42,727 nt of DNA from a virus (IMGVR_UViG_3300005288_000008:1-42727), one strand, 5' to 3'; shown: positions 2,848 to 25,050, counted from the stretch's first letter. The notes: a model not told the origin generated them from the sequence alone. Made by a program: numbers and translations.

Positions 2848-4025
2848 CAGACCACCTCGCTTACAGTGATGTTCGCCACGTCGATTTCAAACTTTGCGCC
2901 AGGATCGGGCGACAAGCTGCCGTCAGTGAAGGTGATGTTATCATCACTGATCTTCATGAGCGTCAAAATGAAGTCGTCACCAGCGGTGTAAGCTGGGCAG
3001 TACAAGGCCGACGCCTCTAGAGGTGTGCCGATGTAGAACTTGTAGGCGGCAATTTTCTGCTTGAGTAGCGCGATATCGACAGGTACAAGCGGGTTTCTGC
3101 GAGTAGCCGTGACCGTGACGTAAATCGGAACCATGACTGGCCGGTCAAAGCGACGGATCTGGTAAACAACGAAGGTGCTGCCGTCTGGACGAGTCAGGGT
3201 CTCAGGAATGTTCGCCTCGATTGCACCTTTGATGCCGGCCCCGCCAGTCTTCTGGAAAAGCAGCACCTGCATGATGTCATCAATGGTTCCGCCCTCGACT
3301 ACCGGCCAGATGCTATGCGCGTCCAGGTCGCTGATCGGGTCGTAAACATCGGAATCATTGTCGTAAACGCGAGCATCTGTCACGCCGGCAGTGTTCAGCA
3401 AGCGCGCAGCCAATGAGTTGGTCGTAGAAAACGCCGGATTCTCAAGGCTGAGGTTGCGCTTCTGGACGAACTCTTCGTCGGTCTCTTCGTCCTTGCCTGG
3501 CTCGGCGTCAACCGCAGCCGTGAAGCCCGTTACGCCGAGGACTACCGTAACTGGCGTGAATACAGCGCCTGCCAAGCCAGTTACCGAGCCGAAGTCAGTC
3601 GCCTGAAAGGTAATCGCAGACACGCCAATCGGCAGAATTACCGGCGCCGGCAGTTCCCAGAGCTGGCCAAGATCATCAGATATTTGATATCCGGTAGGCA
3701 GTGTCAGAATACGAGTCGTAACGACCGATAGATCCCAGAACGACCGAGTCGCAGGGCGCGGGAATACACCGGAGAGTTTAGCGATTTTCGCCTGGAAGAT
3801 GCCGCGTGCGAAGTCCGGGTCGAAGTTGTTGGCGATCCAAAGCCCGAACGCCTGCATGTCGGCTCGAGACTTGGCCTCAATTGCCACACGCTGACCATCA
3901 GGGCTTTCCTGATTGAGATTGATGTCGACGCCATAGATCGCTTGATAGCCCGCCACAAGCTCAGCAAAGATCTCATCAAAGCTCTGGATCGTTATGCCGC
4001 TGGCGTCAATCGTCGGGCCTGCCAT
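2847..4025 (-). CDS. Baseplate J-like wedge protein (392 aa)
   Basis: ORF track. Size and position follow a gp25/W-like gene, with start/stop overlaps to both neighbours. Typical myovirus baseplate order. Confidence 0.65.
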   Translation of the reverse strand: MAGPTIDASGITIQSFDEIFAELVAGYQAIYGVDINLNQESPDGQRVAIEAKSRADMQAFGLWIANNFDPDFARGIFQAKIAKLSGVFPRPATRSFWDLSVVTTRILTLPTGYQISDDLGQLWELPAPVILPIGVSAITFQATDFGSVTGLAGAVFTPVTVVLGVTGFTAAVDAEPGKDEETDEEFVQKRNLSLENPAFSTTNSLAARLLNTAGVTDARVYDNDSDVYDPISDLDAHSIWPVVEGGTIDDIMQVLLFQKTGGAGIKGAIEANIPETLTRPDGSTFVVYQIRRFDRPVMVPIYVTVTATRRNPLVPVDIALLKQKIAAYKFYIGTPLEASALYCPAYTAGDDFILTLMKISDDNITFTDGSLSPDPGAKFEIDVANITVSEVV

Positions 4026-4378
4026 CAGATGGTTATCTCTTCGTTGAATTCGTCGTCAAAAATCGTGCCAAACGCAAGCATTATAGTTGCATTGCGAGTG
4101 CTTGTCTTGACCTCAATTTCCAGTTTGGAGATGGTGGTAACTCCGTCAGTAGACAGGGTTACCCGCTCGACGGCGCGAAGTATTTCTTCCTTTGTATCTC
4201 GGCGCCCGAGCAGGTCGATCCAGTCGATATTAGCGTCAACATCAAGGAAAAAATCAGTGCGGAATGATTTTAGGCGCGTGACAACGTTCTGGCGGATTGC
4301 GTCGCCACGAGAAATGTAGACGGAAAGTCCTCGGCCAAACCGCCAATCACCATCTTCATCAAGTCCTGATACGCGCAT
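4025..4378 (-). CDS. Small baseplate wedge protein (gp25/GpW-like by size and position)
   Basis: ORF track. 117 aa, directly upstream of the J-like gene with an overlapping stop/start. Confidence 0.5.
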   Translation of the reverse strand: MRVSGLDEDGDWRFGRGLSVYISRGDAIRQNVVTRLKSFRTDFFLDVDANIDWIDLLGRRDTKEEILRAVERVTLSTDGVTTISKLEIEVKTSTRNATIMLAFGTIFDDEFNEEITI

Positions 4379-4416
4379 GTGGTCACCTGCAAGAGCTATG
4401 CCAGCATCTTACATCA

Positions 4417-5022
4417 TCATGCGACGTTTGTGATGAGTCCTGCGATAACCGTTACCGTGCGACTGTCACCCGTTGCAAATGTTCCAGTCCAGCCAGGTAT
4501 GCCGCCGACAGAATAGGTCGTTGAGTCGGTGTTTAGCGAGACATCAAGCGCGCCGATCAGAGTGTAGTTGCCCGTATGGATGTAATCTCCAGTTACCGTA
4601 GAGTCACCAAATCGCTCGATGGTTGCGGGGATGGTCTTCGCCATGGACGCTGGGGATACGCCGACCAGTGCAAAGCAGTCGCTGTAATCGTGCATACGCT
4701 GTTCGATTGGCGGCACGTTATCTGCGCCGCCATACCATCGGTCGAAGCAGCGTTCGCTGACCAGCAGGAGGCAGTAGTCGCCGACCGCCAGAGGATGCGC
4801 GTCGTAGCTGGTGCCGCCACTGAGGAACACTGGCGGCACTGATGGGAATACTGGGAGCTGAACTGCGGCGCCATCGACTACGCGCTGAATGACTGGCTGA
4901 CAATCAATGGTGACTGATCCAACAGCAGTAATCTTGGCGACGACGATAGTGTGGGTATTCGCCAGCGCCGTGAGAATGCCGTCGTTCATTACATCCGTTA
5001 GCTCTTCTTTCTTGTCGGTCAT
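4417..5022 (-). CDS. Baseplate central spike/hub component (Gp138 N-terminal-like)
   Basis: ORF track. 201 aa. The VAKITAVGSVTIDCQPVIQR...LPVFPSVPPVF pattern resembles the OB-fold spike N-domain. Sits between the hub and wedge genes. Confidence 0.45.
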   Translation of the reverse strand: MTDKKEELTDVMNDGILTALANTHTIVVAKITAVGSVTIDCQPVIQRVVDGAAVQLPVFPSVPPVFLSGGTSYDAHPLAVGDYCLLLVSERCFDRWYGGADNVPPIEQRMHDYSDCFALVGVSPASMAKTIPATIERFGDSTVTGDYIHTGNYTLIGALDVSLNTDSTTYSVGGIPGWTGTFATGDSRTVTVIAGLITNVA

Positions 5023-5903
5023 CTCGGCACCACATAGTTTTCGGCAATTTCACCGGTAACGCGCTGATACCAGTCGCTCCCGTCGAAGTCGCCACTGTAC
5101 GTGATAAGGCTGCACTTGTAGATGCCGTTGCGGTGCGGCGCCGTGACTGAGATCAACTGATACAGCCCGCCAACCTTGATCGACGGATTCAGGAATGTGT
5201 TGATCGTCACCTCTTTCTTGTCGGCCTCGGGCGTATTGATCAGGCCAGTTTCAGCGCTAACCACCGGAATATATCCAGACACGACCTCATTGCCGCCAAG
5301 GATGTTCAGGCGCTCATCATCAATGAACCAGCGCTGATCGGGGTCAAGCATGTCCTGGATGGTTTGCATTGAGTTCCCGACCAACACCTTTGGGCGACTG
5401 ATGTCAGCCTGGGCGCCGATCTTGCCTTTCTTGGTGTTCGGCATGGTGCCAAGCACCGCATCAATGGCAGCGGCCTTGCTGGTTACTGAGGTGGCGACGA
5501 AGCCTCGCAGGAAGTCTTCGCCGCCATCCATGGCTGAGATGGTCGTGACGAACTGGCCGTCATTCTCGCGAACGCTGCCGGCCTCGTCGATGGATCCGCG
5601 AAAGATAGTTTCCAGTCGGCCTTCGTAACCGATCTCCAGTAGCACAGGGAAATAACCCTTATTCTGATTGGAGGTCGGCTTGTCTTTGCCGTCCTTGTCC
5701 TTCTCGGGTTTCTCGTCGGGGTCGCGCACAAGTCGGCGCCGCTTGTCCTCATTCAGGCCGTCAATCTTGATCGTGGCCTTGTTGAGATCGGCCTTGTCCG
5801 ACTTATCCACGCTGAAGCGAATACGGAATGGAGGCAGAATGGTGACGGCCTGCGAGCCAATCCCGATTGTTAGGCGATAGTCTCGCAGGAATCTGTCGAC
5901 CAT
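5019..5903 (-). CDS. Baseplate hub / tail-associated protein (294 aa)
   Basis: ORF track. Overlaps the downstream spike gene by 4 nt. Called on synteny only. Confidence 0.4.
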   Translation of the reverse strand: MVDRFLRDYRLTIGIGSQAVTILPPFRIRFSVDKSDKADLNKATIKIDGLNEDKRRRLVRDPDEKPEKDKDGKDKPTSNQNKGYFPVLLEIGYEGRLETIFRGSIDEAGSVRENDGQFVTTISAMDGGEDFLRGFVATSVTSKAAAIDAVLGTMPNTKKGKIGAQADISRPKVLVGNSMQTIQDMLDPDQRWFIDDERLNILGGNEVVSGYIPVVSAETGLINTPEADKKEVTINTFLNPSIKVGGLYQLISVTAPHRNGIYKCSLITYSGDFDGSDWYQRVTGEIAENYVVPR

Positions 5904-5906
5904 TTC

Positions 5907-6104
5907 TTATACCTTTTTGCAGCAAATAATGATTTTGTCGATTGCCGCAGCAGTCACCGCGCAACACTCAAGGCCAAGCAGAAAAAGCTCTTCTACCTTC
6001 TCCAGCTCAATCCATCCTTGGTTCAGCTCGACAGTTACGAAGTTCGGCGTTTGCTCGGCTACCTTTGCCCATGACGGCAAATCGGAATCTTCCACGTATT
6101 TCAT
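5907..6104 (-). CDS. Hypothetical protein (65 aa), last gene of accessory cassette
   Basis: ORF track. Stop is 3 nt before the baseplate hub start. No recognisable motif. Confidence 0.45.
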   Translation of the reverse strand: MKYVEDSDLPSWAKVAEQTPNFVTVELNQGWIELEKVEELFLLGLECCAVTAAAIDKIIICCKKV

Positions 6105-6155
6105 TTCAGCGCTTCCCGAGGTTGCGGAGGTGGATGAGCATGTAGAGGGTGGCGA

Positions 6156-6800
6156 TCATTCCTCACCCTCCACGATTTCGAATTTGCGGTAGCCGGCGTC
6201 GTAGATGCGCGCAGCCTCACCGCGGTTGATACAGGTAACCCTGACCAAGTCGTCAATCGCCTTGGTTCGTTCTTCCGCCGCGATCTGATCAGGCGTGCGG
6301 ATTGGGCGCAGCATATCTGGAATGATTGTTCCGCAAAAGTGTCGGCCCTCTACGCACACGACAGCTACATCATGCCCCCCAAAATTTGCACAACCACCTA
6401 CAAGCATGCGCGTACCCGCTGGAAATTCTTCAAGGCGCGCGCCTTCCGTGAATTTGCTTGCAGACTTCAGCTCGCACACTATCCCGACCGGCGGCAGGCC
6501 TTCGCCGTTCCACTCAACAACCTTCGGCGCCTTCAGCGCATCAACTGCGGCCTGCCATTCGGCTCGGGTGACGATGGCGGTGGCGCAGTCTTCTGCAACC
6601 TCAAAGAGTAAGTCGCCACCCGTCCAATGCGAGCGATTCCAATTGCTACCGTTAAATTGAATTATGTTGGGACTTTCTTGTGGGTCAAGAGTAACCAGCA
6701 TGCCGTCGCGATCTTGAGCGACAAAAAGCGCCGCGCTATTGCCAAGGTTATTATCAGGCCACACCTTCAACTCCCGCGCCAAAATATCAACCAGTTTCAT
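6156..6800 (-). CDS. Hypothetical protein (214 aa), accessory cassette
   Basis: ORF track. 4-nt overlap with the upstream gene. C-terminal IAAEERTKAIDDL...AARIYDAGYRK resembles motifs seen in prophage accessory ORFs. Function unknown. Confidence 0.55.
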   Translation of the reverse strand: MKLVDILARELKVWPDNNLGNSAALFVAQDRDGMLVTLDPQESPNIIQFNGSNWNRSHWTGGDLLFEVAEDCATAIVTRAEWQAAVDALKAPKVVEWNGEGLPPVGIVCELKSASKFTEGARLEEFPAGTRMLVGGCANFGGHDVAVVCVEGRHFCGTIIPDMLRPIRTPDQIAAEERTKAIDDLVRVTCINRGEAARIYDAGYRKFEIVEGEE

Positions 6801-7303
6801 GCCGCACCGCCTTGCTTGAAGCCGGCAGCGAATACGGATGGATCAACATTGAAGCCCTTGATACCCGACACGCGCATCTCCAGCTCTTGTCGACGCTCAC
6901 AAGCCGCATCAACCGCCCGACGAAACGCCAACGGATCACGGACCCCTTTCATCACCGCATCATTCCCGCCGGTGCCCGAGATGATCACGTCGCCATAACC
7001 GAAGATGCGGCCCAGCATGCCCTGCTTGACCGATACCGATTCAACCTTGGCCAGCCGGATCTCAGCCGTATCACGCACGATCACGCCGGACTTGCGAATC
7101 ACTCGCTTGCTGGTAATGCCCATCTCGGTGCTGCGGATCTTCAGGTATGCGTACAACAGCAATGCAGCGCTGATCGGCAGGCAGATGATCGACACGCCGA
7201 AGATGACGGCGGCGCAGTAGATGTGGAACAGCGACCACTTGGAGATTTTGCCCTCGGCGAGCAGGGTTTCGTCGGCGGCGAGGGTTTGAGTGATGTAGGT
7301 CAT
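6797..7303 (-). CDS. Membrane-anchored bacterial PH-domain protein (bPH_2 / YdbS-YdbT-like), 168 aa
   Basis: ORF track. A hydrophobic hairpin (LFHIYCAAVIFGVSIICLPISAALLLYAYL) is followed by GITSKRVIRKSGVIVRDTAEIRLAKVESVSVKQGMLGRIFGYGDVIISG, the usual bPH layout. Confidence 0.6.
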   Translation of the reverse strand: MTYITQTLAADETLLAEGKISKWSLFHIYCAAVIFGVSIICLPISAALLLYAYLKIRSTEMGITSKRVIRKSGVIVRDTAEIRLAKVESVSVKQGMLGRIFGYGDVIISGTGGNDAVMKGVRDPLAFRRAVDAACERRQELEMRVSGIKGFNVDPSVFAAGFKQGGAA

Positions 7304-7638
7304 TTGGATTCTCCTTCGATGCGCTCGATCAGCAGGGCGGCGGCTTCGATTGCCTTTCCTGCAAACTTAGCGCTTACCTCGCCGCCAGTCAGGCATTTAA
7401 CGAGGCAGTCATTTACCTGCTTCAGCGCAGCCAGTAGCTCCGGCGAGGCGGCAATCAAACCGGCATTGGCAAAGTCGACAGGGTCAACCGAATAAATGCC
7501 GGCCAGTGTTGGATCATCATCGTCATCAGACGTATCGAATTTCTCGCGAGTCTGGATACTGATGACCTTTCCTTTGCCAAGAGGCAGATCGTGAACCTCG
7601 GCGAACCAAGGACCTGGAGTATGCTTTGCAGTTGTCAT
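7300..7638 (-). CDS. Hypothetical acidic protein (112 aa) with N-terminal HTPGPW and AASPELLAALK motifs
   Basis: ORF track. First gene after the promoter at 7675-7703. Motif pair is common in prophage accessory ORFs of unknown function. Confidence 0.55.
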   Translation of the reverse strand: MTTAKHTPGPWFAEVHDLPLGKGKVISIQTREKFDTSDDDDDPTLAGIYSVDPVDFANAGLIAASPELLAALKQVNDCLVKCLTGGEVSAKFAGKAIEAAALLIERIEGESK

Positions 7639-7674
7639 AACGGTATCCCTATAAGCGCGTCATTGCGCAAACGA

Positions 7675-7703
7675 ATAATCGACTAGGATAATCATTATGT
7701 CAA
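7675..7703 (-). promoter_or_regulatory. Promoter cassette P1: TTGACA-TAATGATTATCCTAGTC-GATTAT
   Basis: -35 at 7698-7703 and -10 at 7675-7680, 17-bp spacer. Member of the TTGACATA(G/A)T(T/G)ATTAT family. The TGA stop of 7700-8041 lies inside the -35. Confidence 0.6.
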
Positions 7704-8041
7704 GTCGGAACTTCCAATCCCCTGCGCTCCTGCATTTCTTCGGCGGTCACGAAATACAGCTCGCACCGCCCCTCGCTGAAATCTCCCAGCCTAAACGGCG
7801 CCAGGCCACTTGAATCCGTGGTCACGCAAAAGAAGTCAAACGGCCAGTTCAGCGCCTGGATATGCAGGCACCCTAGGCTCAGCATGAAGCCGTTATAGGT
7901 CACATTCCGCCAGCTCACATTGAACGACCAGAACTGCGAAACCTGATAAAAATTCAGCGTCAGTACGATCTCTTCGTCATCGACCAGCAGCACATGACGC
8001 TGACTCGGCTCATCGGTGATATTGATTATCTGAAACGCCAT
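7700..8041 (-). CDS. Tail/baseplate-associated protein (113 aa)
   Basis: ORF track. Follows the 258-aa tail protein downstream of the tape measure. Synteny only. Confidence 0.45.
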   Translation of the reverse strand: MAFQIINITDEPSQRHVLLVDDEEIVLTLNFYQVSQFWSFNVSWRNVTYNGFMLSLGCLHIQALNWPFDFFCVTTDSSGLAPFRLGDFSEGRCELYFVTAEEMQERRGLEVPT

Positions 8042-8044
8042 CCG

Positions 8045-8821
8045 TTATCTCCCGAGAACCGCAGTCAGCACGGATTTCTGTTTCTTGGCGCCAGCACCAT
8101 CGCCGGATTTCGGCGACTGAACGCCCTTGTCTTTCGTCCCCTGGGTCTGGCTCTTCACAGCGGGCGCTGGCTTCTTGTAGAAGCGACCCGCGTCCGTGTA
8201 GATCGTCTTGGCGATCCGGAATTTCTGGGCCGTCAACGAGAACGTCAGGGCCTTGCGCTGGTTGTCACGCGTGATCGTCACATCGTTGATCGCCATGCTT
8301 TCGTGATTGCGATACGGCATGGAGATGGTCGTGAGCTGCTTGCCGTAATGCAGCGACTCGATGAAGTCCACGAACTGTTCGCGAATCGGTTTCGACCCCG
8401 ATTTATTGCCGGTGAAGTCGCCAGGATTTTTACCAAGCGAGATCTGTTCGTTGATGCCCCTGCGACGATCTCCGGCGCTGTCCTCGACCTTGGCCGCTCG
8501 CTGATCTTGCGACGGCGTGCGCTTCGGCAGGAAGGAATTCGTCAGCCCCACGGTTGGCAGACGCTTGTCGGACTTGCTCGGCGTCGGCGCATTGAAGAAC
8601 ACGTCGGCGACATCACCGTTGATGGTGATCTTGATCGGCGCATTGATGAGGTGGTCGCCGATATAGCTGCCGTCCTCGACTACCGATGTCGGTGATGCCG
8701 TTGAGTATTGCGTCTGATCGCTTACCCTGGCGAACAGGGTAAAGCCGCCGATGCCCACCTCTTCCAGCGAGGATGAGGACAGCGCCTGATCTTCACCGAC
8801 CTTCAGTTCCTGAATGCTCAT
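8045..8821 (-). CDS. Tail protein downstream of tape measure (258 aa)
   Basis: ORF track. 4-nt overlap with the tape measure stop. Synteny only. Confidence 0.45.
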   Translation of the reverse strand: MSIQELKVGEDQALSSSSLEEVGIGGFTLFARVSDQTQYSTASPTSVVEDGSYIGDHLINAPIKITINGDVADVFFNAPTPSKSDKRLPTVGLTNSFLPKRTPSQDQRAAKVEDSAGDRRRGINEQISLGKNPGDFTGNKSGSKPIREQFVDFIESLHYGKQLTTISMPYRNHESMAINDVTITRDNQRKALTFSLTAQKFRIAKTIYTDAGRFYKKPAPAVKSQTQGTKDKGVQSPKSGDGAGAKKQKSVLTAVLGR

Positions 8822-10419
8822 CGGCCACCTCGGTTAACCTGGGTCTTGGCGGTCTTCAATTGATCCTGCAGGGCGTTATCCACGGCGGCACCTGCGGCCT
8901 TCGGATCGCTGCTCGCAATGTCGATCTTGATGTCCTGCTTGATCTGACTGTTGTTGACTGAGCTGTTGCCGGCCGGCGTCATCGCTACGGCATCGTTCGG
9001 ACTCATGCCTGGCACATCCCAAGCATCTTGCCCGCTGCCGCTTGGGAGTGGCGCTGCGTTGGCTGCCATCTCTGTGGCCGGAGATCCGCCCGAGCTGATC
9101 AAATCAACCGCCCAGTCTGGCAAGATCGAGGTAGCCGCAGATTTGATGCCGCCAAGGATCTGGCTAAACGCCGTACCGATGAAATCGAACAGGCCGAGGA
9201 AAATGTTCTTGATGCCCTCGCCGACAGAGTTGAATGCCGCCAGCAATGCGTCAAGCGCGCCCGCCCAGTTACCCTTGAACAGCTCAATGACGGCATCAAA
9301 CAGATGCCCGAACGCATCAAAGAAAGGCTGGGCGAAAGTGAGCAGCGCCGCAAACATCGCTTTGAATGCGTCAACGATACCCTGAAGCACCGGCACGATG
9401 TCCCAGCCGAAGAACTCCATGAAGAAGTCTGCGATTACGGACTGGCCGCCATCGAGAGCGGTCAGAAGATCATCAACGATAAGCAGCAGGGCAACGATAG
9501 CTGCGGTGATCAGTACGACAGGAGACAGCAGGAAAGCCATAACCGTGGCGAAACCGCCGGTTGCAAGCTGGGCGACAACGAAGGCGCCAGCCAATGCCAG
9601 GGCAATCGGCGTCATGCGCACAAAGAAACCGGCAGTTGCTTGGATGACCTCGCCGAGCCACTGAAGCCCGCCCTTGATCAGGTCTTGGTTGGCGGTCAGG
9701 AATTCAACAAAGCCATCCGTGATCTTCTGTGTGGCCGGCGCTAGGTTGATTGCGATCTGCTGGCTGAGTGCCGCCGCCGCGAACTTAGCAACACCAAGCG
9801 AATCCTGGAAGTCTGCCGCTGCTTGGGCCTGCTCAGTGGTGACAATGCCAAGCTGGCGAGCAGTGCCTATCAGGCCGTCAATCTCTTCAGTGGTGGCATT
9901 TAGGAGTTGCAGCGTCGACGGATCCAGGCCGAGCGCCGCGATAATTGATTTCTGCGTACTCTTGTCAGTGCCGAGTCTCGCAAATGATTCGCGTAACTCG
10001 TTGAACAGAACGTCCGCCGTCTTCACATTGCCGCTGGCATCCTTGACGCTGATGCCCAGCTCTTCGAAAGCCTTCTTGCCCTTGCCAAGACCGCGAGCAG
10101 CGTCACCCGAGACCTTCGAAAGTCCAGCAAGGCTTGCGCTCATTGCCTCGGCGCTCGAACCAGAAAGCTCGGCGGCAAAGCCAAGCTCCTGAATGCTCTC
10201 GACCGTGATGCCAGTTTCGGCGCTCATGTCAGTCAGGGCGTCGGCGGCCTGAGTGTTCGCCGAGACGAACGCGACAAGTCCGCCAGCGGCGCCAATCACA
10301 GCAGCGCCGAAGCCGGTCAGCAGCGCCAGGGACAGTTTCAGGTTTTCGTTGAACTCACGTTGCGGCGCGAGATCTCCGACGAAGCTGAACTTGCTGACCA
10401 ACTCATTTACGACCGCCAT
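8818..10419 (-). CDS. Tail tape measure protein (533 aa from ATG 10419)
   Basis: ORF track frame. Preferred start MAVVNELVSKF has GAGGA 5 nt upstream. Long Ala/Gly/Leu-rich helical protein with central hydrophobic segments, between chaperone and baseplate genes. Confidence 0.8.
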   Translation of the reverse strand: MAVVNELVSKFSFVGDLAPQREFNENLKLSLALLTGFGAAVIGAAGGLVAFVSANTQAADALTDMSAETGITVESIQELGFAAELSGSSAEAMSASLAGLSKVSGDAARGLGKGKKAFEELGISVKDASGNVKTADVLFNELRESFARLGTDKSTQKSIIAALGLDPSTLQLLNATTEEIDGLIGTARQLGIVTTEQAQAAADFQDSLGVAKFAAAALSQQIAINLAPATQKITDGFVEFLTANQDLIKGGLQWLGEVIQATAGFFVRMTPIALALAGAFVVAQLATGGFATVMAFLLSPVVLITAAIVALLLIVDDLLTALDGGQSVIADFFMEFFGWDIVPVLQGIVDAFKAMFAALLTFAQPFFDAFGHLFDAVIELFKGNWAGALDALLAAFNSVGEGIKNIFLGLFDFIGTAFSQILGGIKSAATSILPDWAVDLISSGGSPATEMAANAAPLPSGSGQDAWDVPGMSPNDAVAMTPAGNSSVNNSQIKQDIKIDIASSDPKAAGAAVDNALQDQLKTAKTQVNRGGR

Positions 10420-10651
10420 CGGGATTCCTCGATTTATACGCCTGGATCTCGGCGGTGATTTGTTCGAACTCGATAGCGTCCAAAAACTCTGGTGTATCCA
10501 TCGCCTCGATTTCGGCCAGGCTGCCATACCCGGCCTTCACCAATGCGAACATCGCCATGCGCTCGCCGCTTACATTGGTTTCTCGGATGAGGTCTTCGCT
10601 GGCTCCCCTACTTGGGATGCTGAGGCGATACCTGCGGCGCGAGTAAAAGGG
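10403..10651 (-). CDS. -1 frame extension ORF of the tail assembly chaperone (G/GT- or E/E'-like)
   Basis: The -1 frame stays open across the chaperone 3' end and stops at 10403-10405. It encodes ...MAMFALVKAGYGSLAEIEAMDTPEFLDAIEFEQITAEIQAYKSRNPDGGRK. An in-frame slippery heptamer C CCU UUU lies at 10645-10651. An alternative, U UUG GGG, lies at 10663-10669. Confidence 0.4.
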   Translation of the reverse strand, partial: PFYSRRRYRLSIPSRGASEDLIRETNVSGERMAMFALVKAGYGSLAEIEAMDTPEFLDAIEFEQITAEIQAYKSRNPDGGRK

Positions 10652-16831: not shown

Positions 16832-17965
16832 TCAGGACTCCAGGGATTTCTTGAGGCGGGCACTCAGGCTGTTTTCGTCAGCCTTGCTGTCACCGAAGGT
16901 TTGATATTCGCCACCGGATTTCTTCAGCAGCTTGAAGGCGACGGACAGCTCGGAGTCGCTGAACTTCTGCGAACCATGCTCGACGGCCAGTGCGTCACGC
17001 ATCAGTTGCGCGGTCGACTTGTCGGCGAAGCTGTAGGTTTCCGGCAGAATGGTTCGCGCTTTGTCGATGACGGAGGCGTGAACCTTGACGGCATCACCAA
17101 TCGCGGCAGCGATCTTGTCGGCGAACTTCTTGCGCAGAACCTTGCGGGCCGAGTCGGTAACCTTGACCGGATCGCCACCGGCAGCGTCGGCGCTTTCGTC
17201 CATCAGCTTGTCGGCATCTTCGTCGGTCATCACCGGAAGATCTTCGACAACCGCTTCAGCAGCAGGAGCCTCGACGCCGGCTTCGGTGGCGGCAGCCATG
17301 ATTTCCTGAAGCGCCGGCAACAGCTCGGCCAGCTTATCAGCAGGCACGTTTTTGATCGCTTCCGGCAGGCCAGCGGCCAGCTCGACGATCTGTGAAAGAC
17401 TCAAAGAGCCGTCGGCGTCACAGAACGCCTTATGCAACTTCTTCGGCATGGTAGCCTCCGGGTTTGGTTTTCGGTCGATGAAGCGGCAGCCAGAACCGCA
17501 GCGGCCAGAGTCAACAGTAGCAAGATGGGTCGGCACAAGGTCGCGCTGTTCGAAGTCCCATTTGTCATGGGGAACCAGGCGGCCTTCGTAGCCAAGAGAT
17601 AATTGATTTTTGCCGCCCTCGATTTCGGCCAGCATGTCGTCGTCGAGGAACAGCTTGTTCTGGATAGCCAGGGTTGAACTGGTCGACTCATCGAACGCAT
17701 CGATAAAGGACGCTGATTCAACGCGGCTTGGAATGTCAGCAGGCTCGGTGCCTGGCTCGATATGATCGCCGATGACCGGGATACCTGGCATTTGCGAAAC
17801 AAGGCTGGCGATGGTGGCAGGCGAGCGGTAGACGGTGAAGATCTTGTCTGGCGGCTCTTGGCCGATCTCGCTACCCAGGTACTCCAGCACGCCGTCGCGA
17901 ACACTCACAGCCGTCCGAAGACTGCCGTCGTAGGTTGCCACGTCGATGAACTTGAGCTTTTCCAT
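16832..17965 (-). CDS. Prohead protease/scaffold protein (DUF2213-like, 377 aa from ATG 17965)
   Basis: ORF track frame. Preferred start MEKLKFIDVATYDGSLRT... The N-domain motif VYRSPATIASLVSQMPGIPVIGDHI resembles DUF2213. C-terminal Ala/Glu/Asp-rich helical half looks scaffold-like. Confidence 0.55.
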   Translation of the reverse strand: MEKLKFIDVATYDGSLRTAVSVRDGVLEYLGSEIGQEPPDKIFTVYRSPATIASLVSQMPGIPVIGDHIEPGTEPADIPSRVESASFIDAFDESTSSTLAIQNKLFLDDDMLAEIEGGKNQLSLGYEGRLVPHDKWDFEQRDLVPTHLATVDSGRCGSGCRFIDRKPNPEATMPKKLHKAFCDADGSLSLSQIVELAAGLPEAIKNVPADKLAELLPALQEIMAAATEAGVEAPAAEAVVEDLPVMTDEDADKLMDESADAAGGDPVKVTDSARKVLRKKFADKIAAAIGDAVKVHASVIDKARTILPETYSFADKSTAQLMRDALAVEHGSQKFSDSELSVAFKLLKKSGGEYQTFGDSKADENSLSARLKKSLES

Positions 17966-17993
17966 TATCCAGCCTTGGCACGAATCTTGCCGA

Positions 17994-18022
17994 ATTGTAA
18001 ACCCTGATTGATGGCAAAGCAA
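17994..18022 (-). promoter_or_regulatory. Sigma70-like promoter TTGCTT-N17-TACAAT upstream of protease/scaffold gene
   Basis: -35 at 18017-18022 and -10 at 17994-17999 on the minus strand. Lies directly after the terminator at 18052-18078 and about 29 nt before ATG 17965. Confidence 0.5.
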
Positions 18023-18051
18023 ATATTGTGCCGAGGGGAATTGCTGGCATG

Positions 18052-18078
18052 AAAAAGCCCGCGCATTGGCGGGCTTTT
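18052..18078 (-). terminator. Intrinsic (bidirectional) terminator AGCCCGC-N6-GCGGGCT with flanking T/A runs
   Basis: Minus strand reads AAAAGCCCGCCAATGCGCGGGCTTTTTC. Placed inside the head-gene arm after two micro-ORFs. Confidence 0.7.
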
Positions 18079-18110
18079 AATCCAGGAATTGTTGTTTTTG
18101 GGCGGGACTA

Positions 18111-18254
18111 TCAGCGCCAGAACACTGAAAGCCCCTTTCTAGAACGCCATCGTTCACGGTGCGTCCGCGCTGGATCGGTTGGCAGTCGAACATCATTAGG
18201 CGGTTCTGGCCGCACATAACTCAGCGCTGCGCCGATCAGGATTATCATCAACAT
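18111..18254 (-). CDS. Possible micro-ORF (47 aa, hydrophobic N-terminus MLMIILIGAALSYV)
   Basis: Manual translation, below the ORF-track cutoff. Weak ribosome-binding site. Ends just before the terminator. Confidence 0.2.
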   Translation of the reverse strand: MLMIILIGAALSYVRPEPPNDVRLPTDPARTHRERWRSRKGLSVFWR

Positions 18255-18294
18255 TCGATTATCCAGTTAAGGGGATTGAGGTGGGCGGGGTCGG

Positions 18295-18438
18295 TTAGCG
18301 AACCAAGTACATAACAACCCAACGACCGTCACTATCCTGCTCGACATCTACCCATTTGACTTTGGTCGGGCACAGGCACGATGCGAATCCATCAGCCTGC
18401 TCTTTGGTGCGAAAAGAAGTGAAGGTCATCGGGTTCAT
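18295..18438 (-). CDS. Micro-ORF (47 aa) MNPMTFTSFRTKEQADGFASCLCPTKVKWVDVEQDSDGRWVVMYLVR
   Basis: Manual translation, below the ORF-track cutoff. GGAG lies 9 nt upstream of the ATG. First ORF after promoter cassette P2. Confidence 0.4.
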   Translation of the reverse strand: MNPMTFTSFRTKEQADGFASCLCPTKVKWVDVEQDSDGRWVVMYLVR

Positions 18439-18472
18439 CTCGTCTTGCTCCGTTGTTCGTTTCGATGGAGCA

Positions 18473-18501
18473 ATCCTCTCACGACATAATAACTATGTCA
18501 A
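18473..18501 (-). promoter_or_regulatory. Promoter cassette P2: TTGACA-TAGTTATTATGTCGTGA-GAGGAT
   Basis: -35 at 18496-18501, 17-bp spacer. The TGA stop of the collagen-like gene (18498-18500) lies inside the -35 hexamer. Confidence 0.55.
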
Positions 18502-19418
18502 CGCTCAATAACAATTATTTGCGCAGCCGAACCAACAACCGGAACCGTCGCGCCTAACAGTACCTCTAGTCCGAGCAAGGTAACGACGTTCCGCTGATTG
18601 AGCTGAAGCGTGAAGCCCGTAGCCGTGCTGGAAACCAGCGTCCAAACCTGGCTGGCCACTGCTGGTGGCGGCGGCTGAACGTTCGGCGCCTGCGAGAATA
18701 CCGTCGGGTACGTCACAATGATCTGCCCTGCCGCGCTCGTGGTGCCGGTATAGGTTTCGAGGCGCTTGCTGATGCCCGATGGCCCTTGCGGCCCCGTTGC
18801 ACCTGTCGGCCCTTGAATCCCCTGAATACCTTGAGCACCTGTCGCGCCGGTTAATCCCTGCGGCCCGGTAGCGCCCTGGATTCCCTGCGCACCCGTATCG
18901 CCCTTTACGCCTTGCGGGCCTGTCGCACCAGTAAGGCCAATCGGGCCTTGAGGGCCTGGAACTGTACTCGCCGCCCCAGTTGCTCCCGTGGCGCCAGTCA
19001 GTCCCTGGATACCTTGCGGCCCCTGAGATCCAGTCGCACCAGTATTTCCGGTATCGCCTTTGACGCCCTGGATTCCTTGAGGCCCAGCGGCTCCCGTCAG
19101 ACCCGTGTCGCCCTTTTCGCCTTTTGCGCCAGCAGGGCCAGCTTCTCCCTGTACCCCTTGAGGGCCTTGCGGGCCAGCTAGAACGGTCGAGCTAAGAACT
19201 CCGGAGCTGATCTGCAACCCTTGGCCGACAGTAAAGAACTGCGGCAGAACCGTTACGCCGTTGAATCCGAGGATGCCATTGGCGCCACCAGCAGGAATGG
19301 TGAGGGTGCGACTCAGCGTTCCGGTATCAGTGGCGTTACGCTGATTCATCAACAAATCGTTGGCAGCCCCCAGCGCAAGGCTCGGCAGCAGTAGTGCGAG
19401 AGCAATCAGCTTTTTCAT
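18498..19418 (-). CDS. Secreted collagen-like repeat protein (306 aa) with Sec-type signal peptide and beta-rich C-terminal domain
   Basis: ORF track. N-terminus MKKLIALALLLPSLALG/AAND. 43 Gly-X-Y triplets in two blocks (23 + 20) split by STVP. The C-terminal about 90 aa (...IIVTYPTVFSQAPNV...TGFTLQL...) resembles fibre-tip/lectin-like domains. Confidence 0.85.
   Translation of the reverse strand: MKKLIALALLLPSLALGAANDLLMNQRNATDTGTLSRTLTIPAGGANGILGFNGVTVLPQFFTVGQGLQISSGVLSSTVLAGPQGPQGVQGEAGPAGAKGEKGDTGLTGAAGPQGIQGVKGDTGNTGATGSQGPQGIQGLTGATGATGAASTVPGPQGPIGLTGATGPQGVKGDTGAQGIQGATGPQGLTGATGAQGIQGIQGPTGATGPQGPSGISKRLETYTGTTSAAGQIIVTYPTVFSQAPNVQPPPPAVASQVWTLVSSTATGFTLQLNQRNVVTLLGLEVLLGATVPVVGSAAQIIVIER
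18774..19175 (-). repeat. Collagen-like Gly-X-Y coding repeat region (9-bp periodic degenerate repeats)
   Basis: Residues 82-215 of the 18498-19418 product: GPQGPQGVQGEAGPAGAKGEKGDTG...GPTGATGPQGPSG. Confidence 0.85.
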
Positions 19419-19789
19419 GATGTGGCAACCCTTGCAATGATCTTGTCGGTAGTCGAGACCGTGTTGAATACCACGAGGTCATTGACGTTGAGCGATACGA
19501 CGTTGTTGGCAACTTCTACGCCGACATCCGATGAAGTGACGGTGAGTTGGGTGATGGCCTGAATCGCGAAGATGAAGAAGCGCTGGCCGGCCTTGATGCC
19601 TGGCGAAAGGATGAGCTGCAAGTCGGCAATGGTTGCCGCCGGTGACAGCACGACATTGACCACAAGCGCATCGGTCGCAGGAATTTGGATGGTCTCCCCT
19701 GAGGCTGGAGAGAACTCAAACTCGGCAGGCGTCATGCCCGCCGACTCGCTTGCCATCATCCCCCAGGGCCAAACGAAAGGAGTGATCAT
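19415..19789 (-). CDS. Hypothetical protein (124 aa)
   Basis: ORF track. ATGA-type overlaps with both neighbours. No motif recognised. Confidence 0.5.
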   Translation of the reverse strand: MITPFVWPWGMMASESAGMTPAEFEFSPASGETIQIPATDALVVNVVLSPAATIADLQLILSPGIKAGQRFFIFAIQAITQLTVTSSDVGVEVANNVVSLNVNDLVVFNTVSTTDKIIARVATS

Positions 19790-20082
19790 TCGACCACCTC
19801 CTGTAGGCCGCCCAGCAAGACCGCAGCGTTGCCACGGATCCAGGCGGAATTCGCTTTGATACGAACGCCACCACCTGGCGGAATCTCCCAGCCGTACATC
19901 GCATCGGTTGGCGGCTGATCACCCTCATAGGCGACGATGCGCGTACCACTGCGATTGCAGCAAATGACATCAGTACCAGGCGCAAACCCAGTCACCGCGT
20001 AGAAATCGTGCCAAACCGCAGGCGCCAGTGGCAAATCCGGCTTCATGACCATTTGCAAACTCCTTGTCGCTTCCGGCGACAT
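19786..20082 (-). CDS. Hypothetical protein (98 aa)
   Basis: ORF track. ATG 20082 has AAGGA 5 nt upstream. No motif recognised. Confidence 0.5.
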   Translation of the reverse strand: MSPEATRSLQMVMKPDLPLAPAVWHDFYAVTGFAPGTDVICCNRSGTRIVAYEGDQPPTDAMYGWEIPPGGGVRIKANSAWIRGNAAVLLGGLQEVVE

Positions 20083-20087
20083 AATCC

Positions 20088-20915
20088 TTATTCATCATCA
20101 ACCGTTTCCGGAATGATCATGGTGTACGTGCAGCGGCAATTGTAGTCGGTGCCAGGCAGGAGGTATAGGCCGTCGACGTCGGAATAGAGACCTTCAGCGA
20201 GATCGAACTCCTTGCCTTCACGATCTTCGTGCGACGGACGGACTCGCTCATCACCAGCAGTCTCCCATACAGCCTTGGTGATCCCGAGATTCTGCGCTCG
20301 GATCTTGGTCGTGATCGAGTTGTAGTTCTGCACCTGATTTCGAGCCAAAAACTTGGCATGATTCTTTCTTTCGGATGCGATGTCGTCAAACTGGCTGACG
20401 ATGGTGTCAAGCGATTCGCCCTGGCTCATGGCAAACAGTGTGTTGTTCGTGAACTTCTGAAAGGTGTCGTCGCGCAGGGTTTTGATCCATTGCGAGGTCT
20501 CTGCCATCAGCGCATTGGTGGTCGACTTCATCCCCTCCTTGGCAATCAGGTCGGCAACGTTGATCCCAGTCTTCGCAGCAACCCGCTTGTAGAATTCCTC
20601 CTTGGATTTCTTGTCGAGTTTTCCGAGCGCCTTTTGACTGATGGTGTCAATGCGGTCATCGCTGAATTGCTTGAGGATCGACTTGGCCGCAGCCTTCGAC
20701 AGGCTCAGGAGGATCGACGCGAAGTTGCCGGTTTGGGCGTCAGCAAACTTCTCCACCGTCTTGACCTGGAGCTGGCCCAGCACCTGATTCTGAAATCGCT
20801 TGGCCATCGTATCGACCATGAACTCGATCATGTCGGCCAGCTCGTTTTCGATGCTGCGCGGCGATTTTGGCGCCTTGATTGGTGTCGGCTTTGCGGCGGT
20901 CAGTTGGCGCTTCAT
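20088..20915 (-). CDS. Minor head protein, phage Mu F / SPP1 gp7-like head morphogenesis protein
   Basis: ORF track. The motif ...VWETAGDERVRPSHEDREGKEF...DYNCRCTY is the hallmark of the Mu F-like family. Directly downstream of the portal gene. Confidence 0.8.
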   Translation of the reverse strand: MKRQLTAAKPTPIKAPKSPRSIENELADMIEFMVDTMAKRFQNQVLGQLQVKTVEKFADAQTGNFASILLSLSKAAAKSILKQFSDDRIDTISQKALGKLDKKSKEEFYKRVAAKTGINVADLIAKEGMKSTTNALMAETSQWIKTLRDDTFQKFTNNTLFAMSQGESLDTIVSQFDDIASERKNHAKFLARNQVQNYNSITTKIRAQNLGITKAVWETAGDERVRPSHEDREGKEFDLAEGLYSDVDGLYLLPGTDYNCRCTYTMIIPETVDDE

Positions 20916-25021: not shown

Positions 25022-25050
25022 ATAATCGCTCACAACCAAAACTATGTCAA
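25022..25050 (-). promoter_or_regulatory. Promoter cassette P3: TTGACA-TAGTTTTGGTTGTGAGC-GATTAT, drives the tRNA unit
   Basis: -35 at 25045-25050 and -10 at 25022-25027, 17-bp spacer. The tRNA-like element starts about 12-15 nt downstream. Confidence 0.6.

What the first reader, a model, noticed from the sequence alone, without database searches (positions are those of the whole stretch)
5907..7703. Four-gene accessory cassette with its own promoter inserted in the baseplate module (membrane bPH-domain protein inside)
Four tightly coupled non-structural-looking genes sit between tail gene 7700-8041 and baseplate hub gene 5019-5903. They are a 112-aa acidic TPGPW protein, a 168-aa two-TM bacterial PH-domain (YdbS/YdbT-like) protein, a 214-aa unknown and a 65-aa unknown. 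Promoter cassette P1 (7675-7703) precedes them, with its -35 fused to the upstream stop codon. The same cassette type heads the early operons on the other arm. This is the architecture of a moron: an independently expressed insert in a late operon. A membrane bPH protein is not a known virion part. Superinfection exclusion, an abortive-infection-like function, or an envelope/host-takeover function are plausible but unproven.
Basis: partly seen in the sequence, partly recalled or inferred. Interest (0 to 1): 0.65.

Follow-up and report, generated by a model that had tools for sequence, protein, structure and literature searches.

The report
Promoter-led accessory island in baseplate operon
A soil phage carries, wedged between two baseplate genes, a small exchangeable set of non-structural genes with its own promoter. 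Its one fixed member is an inner-membrane PH-domain protein, a kind of add-on gene that recurs in many phages next to their DNA-injection or lysogeny genes and probably guards the infected cell's membrane.

Summary
Four coupled ORFs lie between the baseplate plug (7700-8041) and hub (5019-5903): 112 aa PF27050 "TPGPW", 168 aa bPH_2 membrane protein, 214 aa and 65 aa. An overlooked 17-codon ORF lies there too. A consensus sigma-70 promoter precedes them, with its -35 containing the plug stop codon.

All 10 cultured relatives (Yersinia fEV-1, nine Vibrio phages) and one close uncultured relative (L058) have plug and hub overlapping, with no promoter. So this is an insert, and the baseplate can do without it at this site.

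In at least 13 close relatives the site holds an island. The invariant unit is promoter-leader-bPH (dN/dS 0.13-0.30). The neighbouring genes are swapped at conserved junctions.

It is not a textbook moron. It has no terminator and no GC anomaly. It is translationally chained into the hub, fixed in most of the clade, and there is no sign of lysogeny.

More distant bPH homologues sit at classic moron sites elsewhere: Dit|hub, just upstream of the tape measure gene, next to integrase or repressor. Several have their own terminator.

The most likely function is a non-virion inner-membrane protein that excludes superinfecting phages or protects the membrane. This is inferred, not shown. It is a new member of a known kind, of moderate interest.

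The parts
7675..7703 (-). Promoter P1: -35 TTGACA (7703-7698, contains the plug stop codon TGA at 7702-7700), 17-nt spacer holding the perfect palindrome ATAAT-G-ATTAT (7697-7687), and -10 GATTAT (7680-7675).
   Evidence: The 19-nt core is identical in 7 related genomes, and the element is recognisable in 12. It is absent from the empty-site relative L058.
7639..7674 (-). Conserved leader with GCGC-N6-GCGC (TTGCGCAATGACGCGC) and a weak RBS (GGGA). It travels with the promoter.
   Evidence: The same promoter and leader stand at a different site in L012. The predicted fold is not significant.
7300..7638 (-). Slot 1: 112-aa acidic soluble protein of family PF27050 / phrog_1273 (HTPGPW ... NA-LIAA-PELL motifs). 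Function unknown. Exchangeable.
   Evidence: AF2 pLDDT 80, no PDB match. Replaced by phrog_2201-type genes, or absent, in relatives.
6797..7303 (-). Core gene: 168-aa YdbS-like inner-membrane protein. It has an N-terminal strand, a hydrophobic hairpin (residues 23-54), a bPH_2 domain (57-129) and a variable C-terminal tail ending in QGGAA.
   Evidence: Present at plug|hub in >=13 relatives. dN/dS 0.13-0.30.
6156..6800 (-). Slot 3: 214-aa acidic soluble protein (phrog_7798/3483). It has a variable N-domain, an SH3/Tudor-like barrel and a C-terminal helical hairpin. Conserved motifs are WxGEGLPPVG, RPIRTPEQIAAEER and YDAGYRKFEIVE.
   Evidence: Mosaic or shortened variants occur in relatives.
6106..6159 (-). 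17-codon micro-ORF MIATLYMLIHLRNLGKR. Its ATG overlaps the stop of the 214-aa gene, and its stop lies 1 nt before the next ATG.
   Evidence: Found in five distinct genomes with conservative amino-acid changes. Absent from several others.
5907..6104 (-). Slot 4: 65-aa acidic protein with a Cys-rich C-terminus. It belongs to a small family of 64-69 aa proteins. Its stop lies 3 nt before the hub ATG.
   Evidence: Among the loci examined it recurs only in L023. Other relatives carry unrelated small 2-TM proteins or nothing there.
7700..8041 (-). Left flank of the insertion site: baseplate plug (Pam3 gp18-like).
5019..5903 (-). Right flank of the insertion site: baseplate hub (E217 gp41-like).

Best explanation
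ARCHITECTURE. The plug|hub junction of this ~42-kb E217/Pam3-type myovirus clade is an accessory-gene island, not part of the baseplate. Its stable unit is a sigma-70 promoter plus short leader plus a YdbS-like inner-membrane bPH_2 protein. Other small accessory genes are slotted in and exchanged by recombination at conserved gene-junction sequences (...GESK/ATGA, ...QGGAA/ATGA). Examples are PF27050 or phrog_2201 proteins, p214-family proteins, tiny membrane proteins and the 65-aa protein. They are the type found in early-left operons of temperate Pseudomonas phages.

EXPRESSION (inferred). Host RNA polymerase starts at about 7668 from P1, independently of transcription coming from upstream. 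No terminator lies on either side. The ORFs are translationally chained down to the hub ATG. The island is therefore also read by the structural transcript, and P1 transcripts run on into the hub and spike genes.

FUNCTION (inferred). The bPH protein inserts as a hairpin in the cytoplasmic membrane with its PH domain and variable tail in the cytoplasm. It is not built into virions. It most likely acts on membrane events of infection. The favoured mechanism is blocking or disturbing inner-membrane penetration and DNA entry by superinfecting phages (superinfection exclusion, as HK97 gp15 or T4 Imm do). The variable C-tail is a candidate specificity element.

HOW LIKELY. Accessory island with its own promoter: about 0.85. 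Non-structural: about 0.8. Exclusion or membrane-protection function: about 0.35-0.4. The overall confidence given (0.45) is for the whole statement including the functional part. The soluble acidic partners (112 aa, 214 aa) are independent early-type accessory proteins of unknown function.
For: Insertion:
- Plug and hub overlap in fEV-1 and in nine Vibrio phages, in more distant IMG/VR relatives L062-L064, and in the clade member L058 (plug 75% identical), which also lacks the promoter.

Island present with bPH in L004-L009, L014, L017, L021-L023, L054-L057 and L060:
- bPH core is 63-91% identical, with dN/dS 0.13-0.30.
- The neighbouring genes are replaced.

Promoter:
- Consensus -35, 17-nt spacer, xAxxxT -10.
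- It belongs to a 16-nt motif family enriched 16 against 0.77 expected.
- The core is identical in seven genomes despite flanking dS of 0.4-1.3.
- It stays directly upstream of the bPH unit in L014 and L017.
- The same promoter and leader head a PF27050 + p214-type cassette at another site (MuF|scaffold) in L012.

Non-structural character:
- Membrane hairpin plus bPH_2 domain.
- In Dickeya phage LIMEstone1 the homologue ends an operon of topoisomerase and dCMP-deaminase genes. It is not among the proteins flagged 'confirmed structural'.
- It is not named among Sajous1 virion MS proteins in the main text of PMC10892097.

Moron-like distribution of more distant bPH homologues:
- Between Dit and hub with its own terminator (L085).
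- Immediately upstream of the tape measure gene with a terminator (L086, L092). This is the position of HK97 gp15, an inner-membrane superinfection-exclusion moron (PMC3594210).
- Next to integrase (L082, L084, L097).
- Next to a CI-like repressor (L083).

p112 and p214 homologues lie in early-left operons of Pseudomonas prophages.
Against: - No transcript data exist. Only soil-metagenome DNA runs hold this sequence, so the start at about 7668 is unproven.
- There is no terminator, no GC deviation, and translational chaining into the hub. This is not the insulated unit expected of a moron.
- The promoter type also heads the structural arm, so it does not by itself imply early or constitutive expression.
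- No lysogeny signal. No integrase was found in the window. All close bPH homologues lie on contigs <=46 kb. None occurs in 185,579 species-representative genomes.
- No hit to PADLOC defence models.
- There is no sequence or structural link to any characterised exclusion protein.
- Characterised bPH_2 proteins (DdE/DdF, YdbS/T) handle membrane-active peptides, not phage DNA entry.
- bPH is as conserved as the structural genes and nearly fixed in the clade, which is unusual for an exclusion gene.
- L058 and L061 are partial contigs, so a bPH gene elsewhere in those genomes is not excluded. None was found by the alignment-based scan.
Confidence: 0.45

Rival explanations
1. Membrane-peptide handling or lysis control. 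The bPH protein works like the characterised YdbS/YdbT-type proteins DdE/DdF. It deals with small hydrophobic or cationic peptides at the cytoplasmic face of the membrane. Here these would be phage holins or antiholins, or the island's own tiny membrane proteins. In this way it tunes lysis timing or protects the membrane from premature permeabilisation.
For: - bPH_2 proteins DdE/DdF are required for export of, and self-protection from, the leaderless bacteriocin EntDD14. YdbS/T-type pairs occur in several such clusters (PMC8657885).
- The island often carries tiny hydrophobic products: the 17-aa MIATLYMLIHLRNLGKR in five genomes, a 66-aa protein in L006, a 57-aa 2-TM protein in L017 and a 55-aa ORF (hydrophobic on reading its sequence, not analysed) in L012.
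- The phage has two holin-family genes.
Against: - The small membrane ORFs are not constant partners. They are absent in L005, L008 and L021-L023.
- The island is far from the lysis genes.
- The single-gene bPH morons elsewhere have no partner peptide gene that was noticed.
- The characterised examples are from Firmicutes, and those proteins share under 20% identity even with YdbS/T.
Confidence: 0.15
2. Host-takeover or anti-defence island. The functionally important products are the acidic soluble proteins (112 aa PF27050, 214 aa p214 family, 65 aa). They act early against host defences or host physiology. bPH is one more takeover protein with an unrelated membrane role.
For: - p112 and p214 are acidic (pI 4.7-4.8).
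- Their homologues lie in early-left operons of Pseudomonas prophages, beside recombination genes, methyltransferases, a Lar-like anti-restriction gene and Arc-like genes.
- p214 homologues occur in 193 cultured phages of many types.
- The slots turn over quickly, as expected under an arms race.
Against: - No homology to any known anti-defence protein, and no informative fold match.
- These genes are the dispensable, swappable part of the island, whereas bPH is the fixed part.
- PF27050 and p214 do not co-occur consistently outside this clade.
Confidence: 0.2
3. Morphogenetic role. The bPH protein is a clade-specific assembly factor, for example a membrane platform or chaperone for hub and baseplate assembly. 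It is encoded where it is needed and co-translated with the hub.
For: - Fixed position directly upstream of the hub, and translational chaining to the hub ATG.
- Conservation comparable to the plug and hub.
- An independent bPH gene lies between Dit and hub in L085/L088.
Against: - The clade member L058 has plug and hub overlapping with no island. L061 has only a tailspike there. No bPH was found on either contig.
- All cultured relatives with homologous plug and hub lack it.
- Homologues elsewhere sit next to integrase or repressor, or in an early-type operon.
- L085 bPH has its own terminator.
Confidence: 0.07
4. Booster promoter with passenger genes. P1 is simply one of several internal promoters that keep the 25-kb structural operon transcribed. 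The genes behind it are near-neutral passengers that accumulate at a permissive junction.
For: - The same promoter type stands at the head of the structural arm (25050) and at a second internal site (18501).
- No terminator separates the island from the hub.
- The same junction also accepts a tailspike gene.
Against: - Relatives without the island have no promoter at the junction.
- The promoter stays with bPH rather than with the plug in L014.
- The same promoter and leader accompany a cassette at another site in L012.
- bPH is under purifying selection.
Confidence: 0.1

Closest known systems
HK97 gp15 moron (Juhala et al. 2000; Cumby et al. 2012; reviewed in PMC3594210)
   Same: - An extra gene for a small inner-membrane protein inserted in the tail-gene cluster between genes that are adjacent in relatives, with its own sigma-70 promoter.
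- bPH homologues in L086 and L092 occupy the very same slot, immediately upstream of the tape measure gene, with a terminator.
   Different: - No sequence relationship (gp15 is YebO-like).
- The window's island is multi-gene, lacks a terminator and a GC deviation, and is translationally coupled into the hub.
- It is fixed in most of a clade that shows no sign of lysogeny.
- An exclusion activity has not been tested.
phrog_3707 'membrane-flanked domain' proteins of Ackermannviridae (Vi01 gp11, LIMEstone1 ORF020)
   Same: - Same family: 34-37% identity over about 130 residues, with the same N-strand, TM hairpin and bPH_2 architecture.
- A core gene of a myovirus lineage, with uncharacterised function.
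   Different: - In LIMEstone1 it ends an operon of DNA-metabolism genes and is convergent to the head-completion gene. It is not inside the baseplate operon.
- It has no variable C-tail and no accompanying exchangeable genes.
YdbS/YdbT and DdE/DdF bPH_2 membrane proteins of Firmicutes
   Same: - Pfam bPH_2 domain preceded by a two-TM hairpin.
- Size and architecture of the single-domain YdbS/DdE type.
   Different: - The cellular proteins work as YdbS+YdbT pairs in export of, or immunity to, leaderless bacteriocins and sigma-W stress resistance.
- The phage protein is alone, has a much shortened hairpin (32 residues) and a variable tail.
Accessory-gene hotspots and mosaic junctions of phage genomes (e.g. 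P2-type hotspots; lambdoid 'boundary sequences')
   Same: - A fixed genomic site between conserved structural genes where unrelated accessory genes replace each other.
- Exchange occurs at short conserved junction sequences.
   Different: - The site lies in the baseplate core (plug|hub) of an E217/Pam3-type myovirus.
- It keeps one invariant gene (bPH) and an invariant promoter and leader.
- No recognisable defence or anti-defence system is present (PADLOC negative).
T4 Imm / P22 SieA (membrane superinfection-exclusion proteins)
   Same: Small phage-encoded inner-membrane proteins that are not virion components. Imm shows that a virulent phage can use such a protein during lytic growth.
   Different: No homology was tested or apparent. 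The activity is unknown here. The comparison is functional analogy only (own knowledge plus PMC3594210).

Membership tests
Moron (Juhala/Hendrix definition as summarised in PMC3594210) | Extra DNA between two genes that are adjacent in related phages | tested here: met
   Plug and hub overlap in fEV-1, nine Vibrio phages, L062-L064 and the clade member L058.
Moron (Juhala/Hendrix definition as summarised in PMC3594210) | Own promoter | tested here: inconclusive
   A consensus sigma-70 promoter is conserved far beyond neutral expectation and travels with the island. No transcript data are available.
Moron (Juhala/Hendrix definition as summarised in PMC3594210) | Own transcription terminator | tested here: not met
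   No terminator-like site on the - strand between 5900 and 7710. The 65-aa gene ends 3 nt before the hub ATG. Single-gene bPH homologues in L077, L083, L085, L086 and L092 do have one.
Moron (Juhala/Hendrix definition as summarised in PMC3594210) | Nucleotide composition differing from its neighbours | tested here: not met
   GC is 0.54-0.58 across the island, as in the flanks.
Moron (Juhala/Hendrix definition as summarised in PMC3594210) | Expression from a repressed prophage | not testable with these tools
   No integrase was found in the window. Close homologues lie only on contigs <=46 kb. None occurs in species-representative genomes. Nothing indicates lysogeny.
bPH_2 / YdbS-like membrane proteins (Pfam PF03703) | Match to the bPH_2 model above the gathering score | tested here: met
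   57.6 bits against a cut-off of 22, covering residues 57-129. The same holds in seven relatives.
bPH_2 / YdbS-like membrane proteins (Pfam PF03703) | Domain flanked by transmembrane helices (two-TM hairpin before the domain in the YdbS type) | tested here: met
   A hydrophobic stretch at residues 23-54, bounded by K22 and K55, aligns with the two hydrophobic segments of more distant homologues. No dedicated topology predictor was run.
bPH_2 / YdbS-like membrane proteins (Pfam PF03703) | PH-like fold and oligomeric assembly | not tested
No PDB sequence relative was found.
Superinfection-exclusion proteins (HK97 gp15, T4 Imm, P22 SieA type) | Blocks genome entry of incoming phage without being a virion part | not testable with these tools
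   This needs plating, adsorption and DNA-entry assays. Only positional analogy supports it.
Known anti-phage defence systems (PADLOC-DB 2.0) | Match of any island protein to a defence-system model | tested here: not met
   0 families for all four proteins at E<=0.1.
PF27050 (Phage_P22_Y8K6) for the 112-aa protein | Pfam hit and the family's conserved HTPGPW / LIAAAPELL motifs | tested here: met
   The precomputed hit is listed for the window's protein and for 26 of its 27 homologues. The motifs are visible in the alignment. The model gave no hit in the local Pfam copy.
Virion baseplate components (E217/Pam3 type) | Homology to a structural family, or conservation in all relatives with the same baseplate | tested here: not met
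   No structural-family hit. The island is absent from fEV-1, the Vibrio phages, L058 and L061-L064.

The most novel reading that the evidence does not exclude
The bPH_2 'membrane-flanked' proteins (phrog_3707) are a widespread, so far uncharacterised family of phage-encoded inner-membrane entry blockers. They are genetically linked to the injection machinery they act on (hub or tape measure). The conserved membrane/PH core would provide the platform. The hypervariable cytoplasmic C-tail, of at least five types in this clade, would set which incoming phage's tape-measure or hub complex is recognised. In this apparently non-lysogenic clade the gene has been fixed behind a portable, possibly repressor-controlled promoter-leader module. 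That module also recruits other exchangeable accessory genes.
Probability: 0.15. Interest if true: 0.65.

Novelty: new member of a known kind. Interest (0 to 1): 0.42.

Why it matters
If the reading is right, it adds a new and very common protein family (bPH_2 / phrog_3707) to the short list of phage-encoded membrane proteins that control what happens at the inner membrane during infection. The family is core in Ackermannviridae and in this abundant soil and rhizosphere clade, and it occurs as single-gene morons in many temperate phages.

The island also gives a clean natural experiment. Empty, tailspike-only and island-bearing versions of one junction all exist, for studying how accessory genes are recruited into the middle of a baseplate operon.

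It further shows a promoter-leader module that appears to move cassettes between two slots of the structural operon.

For annotation, it warns that genes lying between baseplate genes need not be structural. Practically, such genes matter for phage-phage competition and for choosing or engineering phages for cocktails.

Tried and rejected
- Megablast of 4000-9000 against cultured phages found no match.
- The PADLOC scan was negative. NCBIfam gave only a sub-threshold PuhB hit, itself a bPH_2 protein.
- AF2 models:
  - The 214-aa protein modelled with high confidence (pLDDT 93.7), but no PDB match reached E<0.01. Only an SH3/Tudor-like barrel was recognisable, and BFVD hits were all uncharacterised.
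  - The 112-aa protein (pLDDT 80) had no match.
- PDB sequence searches were empty.
- I suspected the 'GLWQRDDESRDQFIARLK' bPH tail to be a SHOCT domain. No Pfam hit appeared even at E<=1, so I dropped this.
- I suspected a functional pairing of PF27050 with the 'MKLVDILAREL' type of p214, which co-occur in the window, L004, L006 and L012. PF27050 genes in Pseudomonas prophages and in L042 have no p214 neighbour, so this stays unsupported.
- I suspected that adjacency of bPH to baseplate genes in Vi01-like phages was meaningful. In LIMEstone1 the gene belongs to a convergent DNA-metabolism operon, so I rejected this.
- I checked whether E217 gp39/gp40, upstream of hub gp41, are an analogous insert. 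gp40 is the tape measure/transglycosylase, so they are not comparable.
- The leader RNA structure is not significant (z = -0.8), and there is no Rfam family.
- No RNA-seq run holds the sequence.
- The metagenome-contig scan returned only duplicates of IMG/VR contigs.
- Literature searches for PF27050/TPGPW and for Ackermannviridae transcriptomes found nothing usable.
Full report
**1. What is at the locus**

On the - strand the window encodes, in order:
- tape measure (8818-10527)
- Dit-like protein (8045-8821)
- Pam3 gp18-like plug (7700-8041)
- a 112-aa gene (7300-7638)
- a 168-aa gene (6797-7303)
- a 214-aa gene (6156-6800)
- a 65-aa gene (5907-6104)
- E217 gp41-like hub (5019-5903)
- spike (4417-5022)
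- sheath initiator and wedges.

The four ORFs of the finding are therefore real and sit in the core of the baseplate module. Translational coupling runs through the block:
- The 112/168 and 168/214 junctions are ATGA overlaps.
- The 51 nt between the 214-aa and 65-aa genes hold a 17-codon ORF (6106-6159, MIATLYMLIHLRNLGKR). Its ATG overlaps the preceding stop, and its stop lies 1 nt before the next ATG.
- The 65-aa gene ends 3 nt before the hub ATG.

Composition is the same as in the flanks. No terminator-like site lies on the - strand within or beside the block. The window is an ENA soil-metagenome contig, and only DNA runs contain it.

**2. The promoter**

TTGACA (7703-7698) contains the plug stop codon. 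After 17 nt comes GATTAT (7680-7675). Generic promoter look-alikes are at chance level (10 against 9.4 expected). This site, however, belongs to a family defined by a 16-nt motif, TTGACATARTNATTAT:
- 16 matches at <=3 mismatches against 0.77 expected, with 0 of 100 shuffles reaching that number.
- Seven sites have <=1 mismatch. An eighth, variant site is at 25050. Each of the eight has an xAxxxT hexamer at 17-18 nt, and each lies upstream of an ORF in the right orientation.

The sites are at 28721, 33855, 34570, 38225 and 40088 on the replication arm. They also occur at 25050 (head of the structural arm) and 18501 (internal). This is therefore the phage's general promoter type, not an early-specific one. 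The conserved part of the spacer is an imperfect palindrome (ATAGT-T-ATTAT), which is perfect in P1 (ATAAT-G-ATTAT). That suggests an operator for a dimeric regulator, but this is inference only.

**3. Comparison with relatives**

Cultured relatives. The nearest are Yersinia phage fEV-1 (hub 48% identical) and nine Vibrio phages. In all ten the plug and hub genes abut or overlap.

Close uncultured relatives. These have hub 56-98% and plug 71-97% identity. They come from IMG/VR, ENA, Logan and NCBI. They almost always carry an island at this junction.

Invariant content. It is the promoter, the leader (GCGC-N6-GCGC) and the bPH gene.
- The promoter core TTGACATAATGATTATCCT is identical in seven genomes. 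Their flanking genes differ at synonymous sites by dS 0.4-1.3.
- The bPH core (135 codons) has dN/dS 0.13-0.30.

Exchangeable content:
- Slot 1 holds a PF27050 protein (window, L004, L006), a phrog_2201-type 'LRDYFAAKA' protein (L007-L009, L021), or nothing (L017, L022).
- The bPH C-terminal tail comes in at least five unrelated versions, or is absent.
- Slot 3 holds p214-family proteins with two different N-domains, or only the C-terminal module. In L023 this gene precedes bPH.
- Slot 4 holds the micro-ORF, the 65-aa protein (window, L023), unrelated small 2-TM proteins (L006, L017), or nothing.

The exchange points coincide with short conserved junctions (...GESK/ATGA and ...QGGAA/ATGA).

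Three informative variants:
- L058 (plug 75%, hub 64%) has an empty site. The plug stop overlaps the hub ATG, and there is no promoter.
- L061 has only a pectate-lyase-like tailspike gene there.
- L014 has a tailspike plus a 74-aa gene inserted upstream. The promoter, again fused to the preceding stop codon, stands directly in front of bPH.

An alignment-based scan for bPH did not find it on the L058 or L061 contigs, although both contigs are partial. Two conclusions follow. The island is an insertion that the baseplate can do without at this site. The promoter belongs to the island, not to the structural operon.

**4. Portability**

In L012, another E217-type myovirus, nearly the same promoter and leader head a cassette of a small ORF, a PF27050 protein, a 62-aa protein and a p214 homologue (54% identical). 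That promoter-leader reads TTGACATACTGATTATCCTGGGCGATTAT...GGCGCAATGGTGCGC. The cassette is inserted at a different place, between the Mu F-like head gene and the scaffold gene.

The window has a promoter of the same family and other accessory ORFs at that same second slot. Cultured Pseudomonas syringae phage Orisa03 has a p214 homologue there behind a terminator, a TTGACA promoter and an RHH-type gene.

**5. The proteins**

The 168-aa protein is a YdbS-type bPH_2 protein. It has a very compact hydrophobic hairpin (residues 23-54). This aligns with the two TM segments of distant homologues.
- More than 100 clusters of close homologues exist. Essentially all lie on 39-46 kb contigs.
- None was found in 185,579 species-representative genomes, where the best hit was 37% identical.
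- No integrase was found in the window.
- The clade therefore looks virulent, or at least non-integrating.

The 112-aa protein belongs to PF27050 / phrog_1273. The 214-aa protein belongs to phrog_7798/3483.
- Both are acidic and soluble.
- Their homologues lie in early-left operons of Pseudomonas prophages, next to recombination, methylase, Lar-like and Arc-like genes.
- p214 homologues also occur in 193 cultured phages, always annotated as 'hypothetical'.
- The AF2 models are confident for p214 (pLDDT 93.7: N-domain, SH3/Tudor-like barrel, helical hairpin) and fair for p112 (pLDDT 80). Neither matches a solved structure informatively.

The 65-aa protein is a genuine small family of 64-69 aa proteins. 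No island protein matches a PADLOC defence model.

**6. Where else bPH genes sit**

In Dickeya phage LIMEstone1 (Ackermannviridae; the family carries 34-37% identical homologues) the gene closes an operon of topoisomerase II and dCMP-deaminase genes. It is convergent to the head-completion gene. It is not among the proteins flagged as confirmed structural (the core-gene list is in PMC10892097).

Among more distant homologues on other IMG/VR contigs:
- L085 and L088 carry it between the Dit-like and hub genes. In L085 it has its own terminator.
- L086 and L092 carry it immediately upstream of the tape measure gene, with a terminator.
- L082, L084 and L097 carry it next to an integrase.
- L083 carries it just downstream of a CI-like repressor, with a terminator.
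- L078 carries it between terminase and portal.

These are classic moron positions. The slot before the tape measure gene is that of HK97 gp15, an inner-membrane superinfection-exclusion protein (PMC3594210).

**7. Interpretation**

Shown:
- It is an insertion.
- The island is mosaic, with a fixed promoter-leader-bPH unit under purifying selection.
- There is no terminator and no compositional signature.
- The ORFs are translationally chained into the hub.
- The bPH protein has membrane-protein character.
- The wider bPH family has a moron-like distribution.

Inferred:
- Transcription starts at P1.
- The island proteins are absent from virions.
- bPH acts at the cytoplasmic membrane.

The most likely function is exclusion of superinfecting phages at the DNA-entry step, or a related membrane-protecting role. 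The grounds are the family's recurrent linkage to hub and tape-measure genes and to lysogeny modules, plus the precedent of gp15. I put this at about 0.35-0.4.

Rivals, all less supported:
- Handling of small membrane-active peptides, or lysis control. This is the only experimentally known role of bPH_2 proteins (PMC8657885).
- A takeover or anti-defence role centred on the acidic soluble proteins.
- A morphogenetic role, which the empty-site relative makes unlikely.
- A booster promoter with passenger genes.

**8. Verdict**

The label 'moron' fits the bPH family in general better than this particular island. This island is terminator-less, fused into the operon and nearly fixed in an apparently non-lysogenic clade.

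It is a new member of a known kind: an accessory-gene hotspot or moron in a tail operon. It has some unusual features, namely an invariant membrane core, a portable promoter-leader and a conserved micro-ORF. Interest is moderate.

Noticed in passing
window 7703(-), 18501(-), 25050(-), 28721(+), 33855(+), 34570(+), 38225(+), 40088(+): A genome-wide promoter family, TTGACATAGTTATTAT + ~7 nt + xAxxxT. Its conserved spacer is an imperfect palindrome (ATAGT-T-ATTAT), perfect in P1 (ATAAT-G-ATTAT). It may be the operator of a phage regulator. Candidates are the YdaS/Cro-like HTH at 33403-33840(-) and the KorB/ParB-like protein at 34613-35515(+).
   Followed up: partly
window 6106-6159 (-): A 17-codon ORF, MIATLYMLIHLRNLGKR, bridges the 214-aa gene and the next gene by overlapping start and stop codons. 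It is conserved in five distinct genomes with conservative substitutions. It could be a real hydrophobic-cationic micro-peptide or a translational-coupling bridge to the hub.
   Followed up: partly
window 16832-20915 (-): A second accessory slot lies between the Mu F-like head gene (20088-20915) and the scaffold gene (16832-18022). It holds 98-aa and 124-aa ORFs, a 306-aa collagen-repeat protein with an N-terminal signal-like peptide (18498-19418), then the 18501 promoter and tiny ORFs. In L012 and in Pseudomonas phage Orisa03 the same slot holds p214-type cassettes (with a PF27050 gene in L012).
   Followed up: partly
L014 2198-4716 and L061 4501-6985: In two relatives a ~680-aa pectate-lyase-like tailspike gene is inserted at the same plug|hub junction. 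In both, the plug protein carries a C-terminal extension (148 and 151 aa instead of 113).
   Followed up: partly
L085 3501-3911; L086 1934-2368; L092 3492-3926; L083 3495-3914; L082, L084, L097: More distant bPH_2 homologues occur as single-gene inserts between Dit and hub, just upstream of the tape measure gene, or next to integrase or a CI-like repressor. Several have their own rho-independent terminator. In L088 the reading frame appears interrupted after 24 codons.
   Followed up: partly
bPH genes of L003-L023 (window 6797-7303): Synonymous divergence of the bPH core (dS 0.36-0.6 in most pairs) is lower than that of the adjacent hub gene (dS about 1.0-1.3). This suggests more recent exchange or homogenisation of bPH among clade members than of the structural backbone.
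   Followed up: no
L001 (Yersinia phage fEV-1) 11813-12772: The nearest cultured relative carries an annotated reverse transcriptase just after its tail-fibre gene, possibly a diversity-generating retroelement. The window has nothing comparable at that position.
   Followed up: no
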